Of a DNA stretch of 64,000 bases, positions 61-26,148 are shown one piece after another. The notes beneath the pieces were generated by a model, which did no database searches, was not told the origin of the DNA, and worked only from the letters and a program-made list of their open reading frames with translations. The stretch lies in the NCBI RefSeq assembly GCF_006345805.1, contig NC_043008.1, forward strand, positions 16,182,001-16,246,000, given 5' to 3'. The position numbers and the translations under genes were made by a program. The stretch's first letter is position 1. The number at the start of each line of letters is the position of its first letter. Origin of the DNA: Octopus sinensis (taxonomy: Eukaryota).

Positions 61-175
61 ACTCTCTCCTTGTTTCTTTCTGTGTTCCTTTCTGTGGAAG
101 AGCGTAGGCTCGAAACGTTAAAGACATATACTGATGCATCTGTTTCTTTTCTACACCACCTGTCCCGTCGTATAC
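61..175 (+). mobile_element. Short Penelope-like pLTR-type module with a hammerhead-like motif, flanked by (TA)n
   Basis: Closely similar to 8815-8935; contains CTTT-CTGTGGA-A-GAGC/GTAG/GCTC-GAAAC-GTT-AAAG. Confidence 0.65.
88..123 (+). ncRNA. Minimal type I hammerhead-ribozyme-like motif (A6>U variant)
   Basis: Stem I CTTT/AAAG, core CTGTGGA, stem II GAGC/GCTC with GTAG loop, GAAA, loopless palindromic stem III (AACGTT). Confidence 0.6.
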
Positions 176-604
176 ATGTGTATATATATATATATATATA
201 TATATATATATATATATATATATACACTTGCGTTAGAAATTAATTAGCACTTCTCAAATTTCTACATTAAATAGGTTAAATCAATTAACCTCTGAGCTGT
301 TCAAAACGTCTTACGCGATGAGAAAACTTAGTATGGTGTGATTTCGGTCCTTGCGAGGCGCTACCTATATCTATTAAACAAATGAATTTGTCTGCATCCG
401 CACTCCAAGTTGTTGTTGCACTGCTATGTCAACATCATAAGGCTGTAGACTCTCAAACTCCTCTACAAACAAAGTTACGTCATCGTTCTGCGCAACAGTG
501 AACTCGCAACAAAGCAATAGTTCGAGATATGGCCACTAGGTGACAGCACTTACATTGAGTGAAGAGCAAATCAAGGGTGCTAATTAATTTCTGACGGTAG
601 TGTA

Positions 605-870
605 TGCGTGTCTGTGTGTGTACGTGTCTGTGTGTATTTGCGTTTGTGTGTCTTTGTTTGCTCCCCCAAAAAACATCGCTTGACAAACGATGCTGGTGTG
701 TTTTCGTCCCCGTAACTTAGCGGTTTGGCAAAAGAGACCGATAGAATAAGTACTAGGCCTACAAAGAATAAGTCCTCGGGTCTTTGCTCGACTAAAAGCG
801 CTGCTGCAGCATGGGTACAGTGAAATGACGGAAACAAGTGACAGAGTAAAAAGACTAAAGAGTAAAGAGT
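605..870 (+). mobile_element. SINE family A, 3' half
   Basis: CATCGCTTGACAAACGATGCTGGTG...GAGACCGATAGAATAAGTACTAGG...GAAACAAGT; similar to 32660-32867. Confidence 0.9.
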
Positions 871-1414
871 ATAGTTATTTCTTGTTTTCTAGCTGTCGAC
901 CCAATGCGTTTAGTTAACAAATACAAATTGTTATCGCGCTTTGTCACCGCCAATGAAGCATGTATGGATTTACGTGTCCATGAAATGTTGATTATATCAT
1001 CCATAAAAATTACACAAAGGAGAAAACCGACCAGACACATGGGAAAATAATTACAAATTCTATAAATTTTGTTAAATATGTGGAATAAATCTCATGTGAA
1101 CAGCCCAACCTGTGACGTGTAACAGTGTTCTAGTTTATTTGAAGGATGTTTGTACATTTTCCGTCCAGACAGTTTCAAACACAATAATTAGATCGAGCTG
1201 ATGAAGTGGCAGGAGACACTTGAGAGAGATACGTACCGCATAGTGGTACATATATCGAGACTACGTGATACTAAAATGTAGTTATGTTGCTTGTACACGC
1301 ACACAGGCAATATGCATTATATATGCATATATATATATTATATATATATATATATATATATATATATATAATATATATATATATAATATATTATATATAT
1401 ATATATATAGCTAT

Positions 1415-1605
1415 ATTGATAAAAATGGTAAGACAACTAAAGAATGAAAGAAGCCTCGATATTATGTAAATAGAGGAATTTATCTGTAAATGCAATAAGT
1501 GACAATTATTCGGTAGCCATGATAAAACTCCGAGTTTCCACCTCGGCATCTGAAACTCGGAGTTTTATCATGGCTAGCGAATAATTGTCACATACTACAT
1601 TTACA
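1415..1605. mobile_element. Penelope-like terminal fragment with an inverted duplication (hairpin), in (TA)n
   Basis: Arms 1485-1538 and 1552-1605 are near reverse complements; homologous to 14984-15205. Confidence 0.7.
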
Positions 1606-22016: not shown

Positions 22017-22350
22017 TCTTTTATTCCTATGTATTAGTTGTTTCAGTCATTTGATTGCGGTCATGCTGGAGCACCGCCTTTAGTCAAACAAATAAACCCC
22101 AGGACATAGTGTTTATAAACCTAGTACTTATTTTATCCGTCGTTTTTTGCCGAACGGTGGGTTAATGGGGGCGCAAACACGCCAACATCACTTGCCAAGC
22201 GATGGTGACAGACATATACACACAAATGTATACATCTATGTATATGACAGGCTTCTTTCACTTTCCATCTACCAAATCCACTCACAAGGCTATGATCGGC
22301 TCGGAGCTATAGCAGAAGACACTTGTCCAAGGTGCTATGCAGTGGGACTC
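22017..22350 (-). mobile_element. SINE family A, diverged, 5' truncated
   Basis: TTTCAGTCATTTGATTGCGGTCATGCTGGAGCACCGCC...GCAGTGGGACT. Confidence 0.9.
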
Positions 22351-23499
22351 TAGCTGTGAGTATGTGTGAGAATACGTTTCTTCACTGCGTGTGACATCTT
22401 AAATGCATATCTATGCGTCTACAATTCATTTCAATCTTTAAGAAACATATCAAAAAATGATCCCCATAATGTCCAACATCACCATAACCTCTCACTCAAA
22501 AAATGTGCAATTCGCTGCTGCTAGTAATATTCGAAAACAAACAAAGATGTTAATAACAGCTTCGATCAAGGGAAAGAATACCTTCTACACGCTGTACAAA
22601 AGTATCTAAAACAAAAGCCATCGCATGAAAGTGACTAAGATCAACATATAGAAATCCCTCGCTCGGACTACACTTTTGTGCGGCTTATAGTCGTGGCTCA
22701 TTTATCAGCACTACCTGCTACTCTGTGATCTATCTCATCAACGTTGCTTTCGCATCACCCTTAGTATTCACTGGAGTGACGATGCCTCAAATGACATGGT
22801 CTTACAGCAGATCTCGTCACCTGAATGGAGGAACAGCGATTGTACAAGATTAGACACTGTGGTAAATTGTCATTTGGCAACCTTTATAGAAGATTACTAA
22901 AGAATAAGTACAAAAACTCCATAAAGAAATCTGTTGGCGCCTGTCAAGTTGATTGCAAACAGTGTTCTGTTCTTGTGCATTATCTTCGAGCCTGGCTTTT
23001 CATTAAGCAAAAGAAAAAGATAAGGATACTACGAGTAATCCCGAGCAAGCCTCAATCCTATGCAGAATCAAACATATCCAAAAATACAAATGAGATCTAT
23101 TAATTTTGGATTCGCTAGTGCTGGTGGTCTGGCATGGTTTGTCCGGTGTTACATATATCGGACGGGTATGTTTGATTTTTAGTACTTTCAAATCTAAATC
23201 AGAAGAAATCTCTGAGCTGATGAAGGAAATGTTGGCGTTTAATCAACTAATCCAGAAACAGGCTTGTCCTCGGGTATCTCATATGGGTGTGTTCTTTCGT
23301 TGTTTTTCCCTTATACCAATGTGAGTTATTTCTGAGTATGCATTGTTTGGGAGACTTTTTCTTGCAGTGGAAGAAATAGCCAAATTGCTGGCTGCTATTT
23401 CTAAAAAGCTCGGTGTGTGGTAAAGTAAATTATTTTACTTTACCCTATTTTTATAAAGTAATATATATATATATATATATATATATTTTCACCATGTGT

Positions 23500-23710
23500 A
23501 CTTCGTAAACACCAGTCGTATTTTTCTCCATCGCTTGTTGCCCACTTTGGGATCTTTCTTTCCTCTCTCTTCCTTCTATATGTTTCCGACGAAGAGCTCC
23601 GCTCGAAACGTCATACCTTCCTGCTTCCATATTTCCTGAGCGCCTATTAATAATAATACTGTAATTATTCCACTGTGTTGTTTTTTTTGTTTTCCCGTTT
23701 GGATTAAAAT
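23500..23710 (+). mobile_element. Penelope-like pLTR-type module between (TA)n tracts
   Basis: Contains GTTT-CCGACGA-A-GAGC/TCC/GCTC-GAAAC-GTC; layout parallels 61-175. Confidence 0.6.
23582..23616 (+). ncRNA. Minimal hammerhead-like motif (U4>C variant, GUC cleavage triplet)
   Basis: Core CCGACGA, stem II GAGC/GCTC, GAAAC GTC, stem I GTTT/ATAC with one mismatch. Confidence 0.55.
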
Positions 23711-26148
23711 TATATATATATATATTATATGTATATAATATATATATATATATATATATATATATTTATATATGTATATATTTATATATATATATATGTA
23801 TATATATATATATGAATGTATGCATGTATGTATGTATGTATGTATGTGTCTGTGTATGTGTGTGTGTGTGTGTGTGGCAATATATTTTGTTTACTCAAAT
23901 TACGAACAAGTATTGGAAATTTGAAGGATGTCATCTTCTAGATTACGTTGCATATAAGATAACAGTTATTTGACAACATAATTGTCATTCCAATGGGATC
24001 TATAAGCACAGAATAGTGGGAACACTTAACAAAATGAAGAAACCACCGAAGTCTCAAAGGTTTGATTTTATGCAAAGTATGGTACAGGAAGAATTCAAAG
24101 TGAAATTTAAATCCATCAAACATAACGAAATAGATTAAACTGATTTATATAATCGAATATTCAAAATCAATGGAGAATTACTCTCTTGCCATAAGCAAAA
24201 CAGAACCAAACATTAAACTTCTTCGTTTCAACAGTGACCTAGAATATGAAAATAATTTCCTTGAAGGCAGTAGCATATGACAGTATACGTGGTCCCTCGT
24301 GGTTAGCAATAATTCATCTGAAATATAGACTTTTGTTAGATTTATTTCATTGGGTTCATTTTCATTATATATAAATATATGTCTGTGTGCGCGCAGGTGA
24401 GTGTGCGTGGGTTCGCACGCACACATATGTGCATGTATATCTATCTATCTATCTATCTATATGTATATATAAATATATGTATATATGTATATATATATAT
24501 ATATGTACTTTTTTGTTTCGAAAAAATTTTATCCTACATTAGATATAAATTTAATAGTGGTCACTTCCGGACTCTCCCACTCTGTGAGTGCCTCAGTTCA
24601 AATCGCACCTGTCTTGAATGGGCTGGAGTATTTCTATTTTGGATTTATATGGGGTACTTAGTTGTGCTCATGACTTAGTGTTTGCTTCTTCCATGGGTAT
24701 GAGTAAGTATCTCATTTACTTCTTTGCTACATGTATCATTGACGAAGGAGGTTTCTTTTTGAACTAACCCTGAAATTGGTTCGATATGGTAATAATGGAA
24801 ATTTTTAGAGATTTCTGTCGACCTTTTTTCGAGTAGCGTGCGTACTGGGGAAAAAAACTATATGGTAAATGGACAATATGTCCAATTTTCGGCATATTTG
24901 GCATTAGAAAATTTTTACTTTTGCCCTTATTTATAAGTTGTGTATATATATATATACATATATATATATATATATATATATATATATATATATATATTAT
25001 ATATATATATATATATACATATTATTATTATTATTGCGTGTGTTTAATACATTTACAATAATAGTGCTTCATCCCGCTAGGTTTCCTCGAACTTTTGGCG
25101 TCACTGCCATCCCTATTCTTGTAAATGCATATTAAATATGCACTTACAAACATATTCAGTAAACTTACATTTTAATACTAACTCAGCAAAAATAAAAAAA
25201 CCAAACAATCAAGCAAACACTCTCAAACACAGAAGCTGTGGAGTGCAGCAAGTTACTGCTTCTGCTATGGAGTGTGTCTTATCTCAGAACACATGGTATT
25301 GAGGATTTATTAAACCCTTCAGCGCAGAACTGATAATTAGATGATATTCAGGGAACATATTCAACGATGTTTATCTACAAAGCTTATTGTAATACTTTGA
25401 AAATCTCGAGAACATTCCTCCCGTTTATGAGACCACTGTCATTACCATCAATACGTGATTTGTTTAATATTCCAAATGCGGTTGAATTTCAATTTATTTA
25501 CTGTGATTTTTCGAAAAAAAATCCATATCGATGTTAAGTAAATTACCTCCTGGACACCTTTTCCATTAGTTTTCCAATCGTATCAAATCAGTACGTGTTT
25601 TATATACTTTGTTAATGCCTAGTGCATGGCCTAAGAAAAAAAAAACGATTTCTTTGAATCTAATACGATGCAACATTGATTCCCAATATGTTTATTAATG
25701 GCATACATATATGTGGTATAAATGGGGTATACACGCATATTTTGAGCATATTTTCGTAACAATCAAATAACCTATATCTACTAAACTACTGAATAAACTT
25801 TATTTTTCTTAGTTATTTTATGCTATGATAGCTGAAACTACTGTTGCTTATTATTAGAATAATTTTATAAAAACATAGTTTACCTCAATTAAAACACTGT
25901 CAAGTTAAAACAAGGAGAGGTTGCATTGGATCGTTGAGATCTATAAAAAGTGTAGCTGATCTGGAAAAGGGAAAGAGTGATATTTATGACTGGTTTGTTA
26001 TGATCATAAATGTGTACTATGAATATTTCGGGCTGACATATCCGCATCAAACACTTCACTCTCTGTAATTTCGTGCTAAGCCGTGACGCTTGTTATAACT
26101 CTAAACATATGAAGTTATAACGGCTGCTGATATTATAGAAATTACTAA

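What the first reader, a model, noticed from the sequence alone, without database searches (positions are those of the whole stretch)
61..24790. A set of short (TA)n-embedded retro-modules carrying minimal hammerhead ribozymes of several families
Seen: at least five hammerhead-shaped motifs (88-123, 8842-8876, 15101-15171, 23582-23616, 24733-24787), each in a 100-400 bp non-coding module, most directly bordered by (TA)n tracts. Related modules show fold-back junctions (1485-1605, 14637-14844, 15050-15202). Established: Penelope-like elements carry minimal type I hammerheads in their pLTRs and often form inverted pLTR junctions. Inference: this lineage hosts several non-autonomous, microsatellite-associated PLE/retrozyme-like families with non-canonical cores (CUGUGGA, CCGACGA, CCGAAGU). 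These could be family-level catalytic variants rather than decay.
Basis: partly seen in the sequence, partly recalled or inferred. Interest (0 to 1): 0.75.

Follow-up and report, generated by a model that had tools for sequence, protein, structure and literature searches.

The report
Penelope hammerhead variants spawning new retrozymes
The motifs are worn end-pieces of Penelope-type jumping genes and of related protein-free repeats; the commonest family has fixed a change in the core of its predicted self-cutting RNA, yet it has multiplied recently and keeps producing short tandem offspring that were likely copied from small RNA circles, though cutting itself is untested.

Summary
All five motifs are present and belong to high-copy families, but only 88-123 passes a relaxed hammerhead descriptor alone. 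Three families (88/8842, 23582, 15101) are 5'-truncated ends of coding Penelope-like elements. Two (24733, 14637) are ORF-less 481- and 540-bp retrozyme-like units. A6U is a family state (14,893 versus 172 exact copies), and the 'canonical' 8842 copy is the outlier. U4C is a subfamily state in three families; the U9 of CCGAAGU and the TTGACGA core at 24739 are decay. Minimal hammerheads in Penelope repeats, retrozymes and U4C are published; I found no natural A6U in print, but could not read two key papers. Of 93 loci of the young A6U family, 26 are ORF-less minis. Ten repeat a private deletion junction 2-5 times, end at the normal priming site and start inside their own unit, which suggests rolling-circle copying of small RNA circles. 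Cleavage is unproven: copies do not pile up at the cut site. The scan has already noted the A6 change and retrozymes elsewhere in this genome; two word look-ups did not return the mini-arrays.

The parts
61..172 (+). Family A module: 5'-truncated 3' end of a coding PLE (N7=G subfamily), with an internal deletion, followed by (TA)n
   Evidence: family linked to RT plus GIY-YIG ORF
88..123 (+). Minimal type I hammerhead motif, family A: stem I 88-91/120-123, core CUGUGGA 92-98 (A6U), extra A 99, stem II 100-103/108-111, GAA 112-114, loop-less palindromic stem III 115-118, predicted cut 119/120 (GUU)
   Evidence: U6 in 14,893 versus A6 in 172 exact copies
1347..1626 (.). Family B head-to-head insertion (arms 1347-1538 inverted, 1535-1626 direct); holds only the 3' half of the hammerhead
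8770..8964 (+). Family A module, not TA-bordered; hammerhead 8842-8876 has a copy-level U6-to-A change and a broken stem III
   Evidence: (this copy is among the 172)
14637..14969 (.). Family E head-to-head insertion (14637-14743 inverted, 14740-14969 direct) of an ORF-less 540-bp unit; truncated before the family's CCGAUGA hammerhead
14961..15231 (.). Family B insertion (inverted arm 14961-15094, direct arm 15098-15231): 3' end of a Hydra-like coding PLE
15102..15171 (+). Family B hammerhead motif: core 15111-15117 (U4C subfamily state; U9 is decay), long stem II, palindromic stem III, predicted cut 15161/15162
23487..23710 (+). Family C module between TA tracts: 3' end of a PLE family sister to family A
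23582..23616 (+). Family C hammerhead motif: core CCGACGA 23586-23592 (U4C), 3-nt loop II, GUC triplet, predicted cut 23612/23613; U-U mismatch in stem I shared by its subfamily
24511..24939 (+). Family D: near-complete copy of an ORF-less 481-bp wrap-around unit, followed by (TA)n
24733..24787 (+). Family D hammerhead motif, decayed here (core 24739-24745 has U3; triplet GUU); the family core is canonical CUGANGA with GUC
   Evidence: 24 of 26 canonical

Best explanation
The five motifs are worn copies of minimal hammerhead motifs carried at the 3' ends of three protein-coding Penelope-like families (A, B, C) and in one ORF-less retrozyme-like unit (D), and the family-wide A6U and U4C cores likely still allow slow, dimer- or protein-assisted cutting and rejoining of the RNA into circles that the element's reverse transcriptase likely copies for more than one lap. 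Shown: family membership, ORF link, core states, TA targeting, fixed 3' end, more-than-unit copies, mini-arrays. Inferred steps: (1) Two hammerheads in one transcript pair through their palindromic stem III and cut. (2) The ends are ligated into a unit circle of 4,508 nt (cut to cut) in family A. (3) The GIY-YIG domain nicks (TA)n DNA, and the RT starts at a fixed internal UA-rich site 109 nt past the cut site. (4) Early stops leave the 100-400-bp modules seen in this window; longer runs give the 5' repeat of random length. (5) Deleted or short RNAs that keep the hammerhead and the priming site circularise and are copied as tandem mini-arrays, i.e. newborn retrozymes. D and E would be older, fixed elements of that kind.
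For: ORF link: full pLTR-ORF-pLTR copies with 820-1,009-aa frames and CUGUUGA in both repeats (L200, L201, L204, L207); RVT_1 above cut-off, GIY-YIG below it; family B ORFs upstream in L060, L074, L075, L085; family C RT in L215 is 46-77% identical by segment to family A. Conservation: across five family-A subfamilies only N7 and H17, the two freely varying positions, differ in the 36-nt motif, against 22 of 89 gap-free downstream columns; the chance that the 14 sites outside my search key stay invariant is about 0.02. One stem I pair covaries C-G/G-C between A and C. Circle geometry: the tail-to-UTR junction reads the same 12-mer in 86 of 99 hits. 5' ends spread from +104 to beyond -1,200, into the ORF. 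Of 93 loci, 64 run into the ORF and 26 are minis; 10 minis repeat one private junction 2-5 times, and an eleventh array turned up. 24 of 26 minis start inside their own unit, while 56 of 64 full-type copies start upstream of -200 (Fisher p 1.7e-15 with three more minis). 24 of 25 distinct junctions keep the whole hammerhead (p 1.8e-5 under my uniform assumption). Literature: dimer-type minimal hammerheads and the circle model (PMC4209133), low but detectable activity of natural A6C and tolerance of U4C in a viroid (PMC3088659), a protein-assisted PLE hammerhead and internal RT initiation (PMC11167929).
Against: No cleavage or RNA evidence. No pile-up at the predicted cut: 0 of 99 key-anchored starts lie within 15 nt, and only 1 of 93 loci (array L366) begins there. 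TA-fused junctions at the cut number 42 against 23 at a control TA 14 nt upstream (p 0.025), but the control anchor holds two CpGs, so the 1.8-fold excess is confounded. [quoted passage not shown] In the anole element, cleavage was not needed for insertion in vitro and no RNA-seq reads ended at the cut (PMC11167929). Covariation is thin: 1 of 8 pairs, and stem II never varies. Mini junctions reuse a few UTR end points (about 9 of 25 at or next to one UA-rich site), which also fits RT re-initiation without any cutting. No mini was seen nested in a full parent, and the one junction found on two chromosomes differs in linked variants.
Confidence: 0.58

Rival explanations
1. The A6U motif no longer cuts. 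It is kept as a structural or protein-binding element, the RNA templates stay uncut, and more-than-unit copies and mini-arrays come from RT strand transfer between repeats or repeated end-to-end jumps on short pLTR-UTR transcripts.
For: No pile-up at the cut site; recurrent UA-rich UTR end points; the young U6 monomer is predicted to fold as a rod with positions 4-7 paired to the stem III strand; cleavage was dispensable in vitro for the anole element (PMC11167929).
Against: Only N7 and H17 vary across subfamilies, and H17 is U or A, never G, in the subfamily consensuses, which is the pattern of a cleaving hammerhead. Canonical-core controls fold into similar rods. Junctions read the same or nearly the same in each repeat of an array, which repeated jumps would not obviously give.
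Confidence: 0.27
2. The mini-arrays are ordinary DNA events: deletion within a full-length copy followed by unequal crossover, as proposed for retrozyme birth by Li et al. 2026. The core variants simply hitch-hiked with successful master copies.
For: Tandem units of one array share private variants. Two minis (L286, L287) start outside their unit and look like DNA deletions. U4C is a transition and arose in three families.
Against: Only 1 of 26 minis starts upstream of -200, against 56 of 64 full-type copies. All 10 arrays end at the RT priming site with a partial 5' unit. A6U persisted through subfamilies whose endonuclease regions are about 75-88% identical.
Confidence: 0.1
3. One reading: all modules are non-autonomous retrozyme-like families.
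For: True for D (481-bp unit) and E (540-bp unit): wrap-around copies, longest ATG frames 63 and 74 aa.
Against: Families A, B and C continue upstream into RT/GIY-YIG ORFs.
Confidence: 0.05

Closest known systems
Minimal type I hammerheads in pLTRs of metazoan Penelope-like elements (Cervera and de la Pena 2014, PMC4209133; parts 1-2 of 4 read: abstract, results, discussion, start of methods; supplements not seen)
   Same: pLTR position, extra nucleotide between A9 and 10.1, G10.1-C11.1, palindromic 15.2/16.2 without loop, 4-5-bp stem I, mostly solo truncated copies, proposed circular template.
   Different: Family A has U at position 6 in 14,893 exact copies; the paper's descriptor-based families show only U3-A8 as a core variant in the text read.
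Natural hammerhead core variants (Perreault et al. 2011, PMC3088659; abstract, section 8 and passages read)
   Same: U4C known from a viroid; a natural position-6 change (A6C, phage Bcep176) cleaves at under 0.1 per min.
   Different: Those are rare single examples; here A6U is fixed in a young family with many long intact reading frames. A6U does not occur in that main text.
Metazoan non-LTR retrozymes (Cervera and de la Pena 2020, PMC7229834, passages read; Li, Clavereau and Pollet 2026, bioRxiv 10.64898/2026.07.22.740005, parts 1-3 of 5 read, supplements closed)
   Same: ORF-less units of a few hundred bp with one type I hammerhead, tandem copies, proposed PLE origin and mobilisation. D and E fit.
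   Different: D and E are mostly dispersed, TA-targeted and often head-to-head. The family-A minis are many independent births from one identifiable coding parent, with geometry pointing to reverse transcription, not to the local unequal crossover discussed by Li et al.
PAc (Poseidon, green anole) mechanism (Frangieh et al. 2024, PMC11167929; parts 1-2 of 4 read)
   Same: Internal RT initiation downstream of the hammerhead, AT-rich targets, tandem structure.
   Different: PAc starts in the ORF at a site without homology to the target; family A starts at a UA-rich site in the non-coding tail that matches the (TA)n target.
Hydra-clade and Neptune/Nematis PLEs (Craig et al. 2021, PMC8557442; passages and section 11 read)
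   Same: Family B has the CxCX5C linker and the CxxC and CxH motifs of Hydra; family A has a CX4CxxC linker; TA targeting, inverted 5' copies and partial tandems are described there.
   Different: No tree was built; that paper reports canonical hammerheads in Hydra, whereas the main B subfamily has U4C.

Membership tests
EN+ Penelope-like element (families A, B, C) | Single ORF with RT followed by C-terminal GIY-YIG | tested here: met
   A: 820-1,009-aa frames, RVT_1 31.7-32 bits (cut-off 29.6), GIY-YIG 16.9-18.4 bits (below 22.6); homologues carry PF00078 and some PF01541. B: RT motifs and GIY-YIG 17.9 bits, below cut-off. C: RT and linker only, L215 lacks the EN.
EN+ Penelope-like element (families A, B, C) | pLTR formed by partial tandem, 5' truncation, inverted 5' copies | tested here: met
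Neptune or Nematis clade (family A) | CX2-5CxxC linker before the GIY-YIG domain | tested here: met
   CX4CxxC in the L199 frame; definition from PMC8557442
Neptune or Nematis clade (family A) | Placement in an RT tree with reference PLEs | not tested
   No reference set was fetched; 'Neptune-like' is my recalled impression.
Hydra clade (family B) | CxCX5C linker; CxxC and CxH around the conserved E and N; (TA)n targets | tested here: met
Hydra clade (family B) | RWK and DKT motifs in the N-terminal RT region | tested here: inconclusive
   Not found in a coding context in the one locus scanned (L212), which may lack that part.
Minimal type I hammerhead | Stems I and II, GAAA box, palindromic stem III, NUH triplet | tested here: met
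   96.9% of cells paired, one compensated pair in 12 A/C sequences; B, D, E folds read from copies
Minimal type I hammerhead | Canonical CUGANGA box | tested here: not met
   A: U6 (14,893 versus 172). C4 in 64 of the first 100 C rows (hand count), 20 of 30 B loci and 14 of 16 E motifs. Met in D (24 of 26).
Minimal type I hammerhead | Site-specific self-cleavage | not testable with these tools
   Genomic proxies inconclusive.
Non-LTR retrozyme (families D, E; family-A minis) | ORF-less unit of a few hundred bp with one hammerhead, in head-to-tail or wrap-around copies | tested here: met
   D 481 bp, wrap-around in 6 of 24 loci on the direct arm, the reference locus included; E 540 bp, 4 of 24, the reference included; minis about 260-610 bp for most
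Non-LTR retrozyme (families D, E; family-A minis) | Accumulation of circular RNA | not testable with these tools
   Only contigs of runs of uncertain kind were available.

The most novel reading that the evidence does not exclude
A young, coding Penelope-like element with at least 14,893 copies of an A6U hammerhead replicates through a self-cut, re-ligated RNA circle. It repeatedly throws off small hammerhead-bearing RNA circles that its own RT writes back as tandem arrays: retrozyme birth caught in the act, with a working catalytic core not found in print.
Probability: 0.4. Interest if true: 0.75.

Novelty: new variant of a known kind. Interest (0 to 1): 0.52.

Why it matters
The in vivo role of minimal hammerheads in Penelope-like elements is called a mystery in a 2020 review (PMC7761336, passages), and how retrozymes arise from PLEs is open (Li et al. 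2026). Family A offers a direct test of both. It has long intact reading frames, near-identical young copies, a core change expected to slow cutting, and at least eleven independent mini-arrays whose junctions give ready primer pairs for circular RNA. If U6 cuts, descriptor searches that demand CUGANGA miss tens of thousands of motifs in such genomes. If it does not, a very successful PLE keeps the fold without catalysis, which would point to a structural role.

Tried and rejected
Rfam scan at E up to 10: the 150 rows shown (of 355) are almost all microsatellite-driven miRNA matches, with no hammerhead. Cut-site footprint: 42 versus 23 TA junctions, confounded by CpG content; no pile-up among 5'UTR-bearing copies. 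Idea that U6 and C4 were fixed because they stabilise an inhibitory helix: not supported, since canonical C and D controls pair their cores as much and the effect differs among subfamilies. Splicing as the origin of mini junctions: no GT after the UTR end points in 24 of 26 junctions shown and no consistent AG. Nested insertion into the element's own UTR: no host remainder downstream of the minis. Alternative core register (U3 with G8) for family A: rejected by eye, as it loses stem I. Expression: no RNA holder listed. Laid contigs cannot show RNA ends; depth peaks on the hammerhead and loose ends flank it, and one contig of run X13 holds a UTR-to-pLTR back-joint, but the run kind is a guess, so neither is used as evidence. 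Literature: searches found no natural A6U hammerhead, and one search listed no title on de novo mini-arrays of a coding PLE (listing only). Lunse et al. 2017 and Arkhipova et al. 2017 are not held, and supplements of the papers read were not seen; any of them may list A6U.
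Full report
Setting. The window is G000:C12:16,182,001-16,246,000 of a 2.72-Gb animal genome, rich in (TA)n and SINE-like repeats. That it is octopus-like is my recall, not a test. I call the families A (88, 8842), B (1485, 15101), C (23582), D (24733) and E (14637).

Observation. All five motifs are where stated. Alone they are weak: a relaxed descriptor passes only 88-123, and 6 of 20 shuffles also give a hit; the 150 Rfam rows shown hold no hammerhead. 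Each, however, belongs to a large family. Four of five modules end at a TA tract; 8842 does not. The fold-backs at 1485 and 14637 are head-to-head insertions; that at 15050 is an interrupted inverted repeat.

Core states. Family A: of 17,046 exact copies of a 20-mer that leaves positions 3-7 free, 14,893 have CUGUNGA and 172 CUGANGA. The 8842 copy is one of the 172. Position 7 takes all four bases by subfamily. Family C: of the first 100 rows of 12,763, 64 have C4, 35 U4 and 1 G4 by hand count, and all have A6. Family B: 20 of 30 loci have CCGAAGA and none CCGAAGT, so U9 at 15117 is decay. Family D: 24 of 26 motifs are canonical, so the window copy is decayed. Family E carries CCGAUGA in 14 of 16 motifs, upstream of the part present in the window.

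What carries them. Family A: a search with its endonuclease region scored 150 of 15,657 candidates, and 29 of the 30 loci fetched show the family-A hammerhead downstream. Full copies read pLTR-ORF-pLTR with frames of 820-1,009 aa and CUGUUGA in both repeats. They have RVT_1 above cut-off, GIY-YIG below it, and a CX4CxxC linker. Family C is its sister (RT segments 46-77% identical). Family B lies downstream of an RT/GIY-YIG frame with Hydra-type motifs. D and E are ORF-less units of 481 and 540 bp whose longer copies wrap into their own 3' end. The only PLE protein matches in their 50 loci were one inverted distant endonuclease piece and one locus with unlinked pieces.

Is the A6U motif under constraint? 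With the loci chosen for A6 left out (15 dropped), consensuses of five subfamilies (9-89 copies each) differ in the 36-nt motif only at N7 and H17, against 22 of 89 gap-free downstream columns. The 14 sites outside the search key are invariant with a chance of about 0.02. Their endonuclease regions are about 75-88% identical. One stem I pair covaries between A and C; stem II never varies. This is modest support for a kept hammerhead fold, not proof of cutting. Perreault et al. report low activity for natural A6C and in vivo tolerance of U4C. Searches found no natural A6U, but Lunse 2017 and Arkhipova 2017 could not be read.

Footprints of cutting. TA-fused junctions number 42 at the predicted cut and 23 at a control site (p 0.025); CpG decay in the control anchor confounds this. 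Among 99 of the 128 hits on the start of the 5'UTR, no key-anchored start lies within 15 nt of the cut. One array begins at it. So there is no convincing footprint of linear cut RNA.

Footprints of circles. The same hits show that the 5' repeat is a copy of the element's own 3' end, of random length, from +104 to beyond -1,200 and into the ORF, joined through a fixed junction (86 of 99 with the same 12-mer). The 100 listed hits fall in 93 loci: 64 continue into the ORF, 26 are minis in which the 5'UTR joins back to the pLTR, and 3 are other. Ten minis repeat one private junction 2-5 times, 30 junction copies in all, reading the same or nearly so within an array; an eleventh array appeared. All ten end at the normal priming site, 109 nt past the cut. 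24 of 26 minis begin inside their own unit, and only 1 begins upstream of -200, against 56 of 64 full-type copies (p 1.7e-15 with three added minis). 24 of 25 distinct junctions keep the whole hammerhead. DNA deletion plus unequal crossover predicts long 5' ends and fits poorly. Rolling reverse transcription on small circles, or repeated end-to-end jumps, fits. Against the cutting version: UTR end points cluster at one UA-rich site, no nested parent was seen, and the junction shared by two chromosomes differs in linked variants.

Mechanism. I favour slow, dimer- or protein-assisted cutting, ligation to a circle, nicking of (TA)n by the endonuclease, and internal priming at the UA-rich site; all of these steps are inferred. 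The circle model is from Cervera 2014, and internal priming and protein assistance from Frangieh 2024, which also found cleavage dispensable in vitro. The main rival is a non-cutting structural motif with RT jumps. A folding test of an 'inhibitory helix' idea failed. RNA data were uninformative.

Novelty. PLE hammerheads, retrozymes, U4C and a PLE origin of retrozymes are in print. An octopus repeat annotation does not mention ribozymes in its main text. The scan has noted a core change in the most abundant family and several retrozymes in this genome; look-ups did not return the family-A mini-arrays. Verdict: new variant of a known kind, interest 0.52. The window itself holds only worn fragments; the value lies in the family.

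Noticed in passing
L327, L348, L362-L368, L292, L432 (G000 C1, C3, C4, C6, C8, C10, C15, C11519): Tandem mini-arrays of the family-A element, each with its own UTR-to-pLTR junction; outside the window, used for the mechanism.
   Followed up: yes
L201:1778-1790 (families A and C; window 23633-23643): A block CCUGAGCG about 15-25 nt past the cut site is conserved across A and C although its neighbours diverge. It is complementary to the 3' strand of stem II and could be a folding switch.
   Followed up: no
window 49308-49648: Decayed RT remnant of a family-B-like (Hydra-type) PLE, 38-50% identical in two pieces.
   Followed up: no
L049:1204; L038:2470; L163:2481: Further hammerhead families as bystanders: a U3-A8 core (3 hits) and a canonical-core family with a longer stem II.
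   Followed up: no
window 63845-63900: Possible decayed hammerhead-like motif (GAGCU stem, GAAAC box) next to a coding-looking repeat; seen by eye only.
   Followed up: no
window 3120-4200 and 51850-52320: Remnants that look like non-LTR retrotransposon coding sequence, judged by eye from recall.
   Followed up: no
L278 (G000:C1:82,195,967-82,198,993): Family-A copy with a 1.5-kb deletion from the 5'UTR into the ORF, using a UTR end point also used by a mini.
   Followed up: partly
L409 and L410 (G000:C18, 360 kb apart): Two minis with the same junction and the same private variants: a duplication, an assembly repeat or sibling insertions.
   Followed up: no
window 30721-31012 and 43872-44238: Two-copy tandem repeats of 159 and 184 bp.
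   Followed up: no
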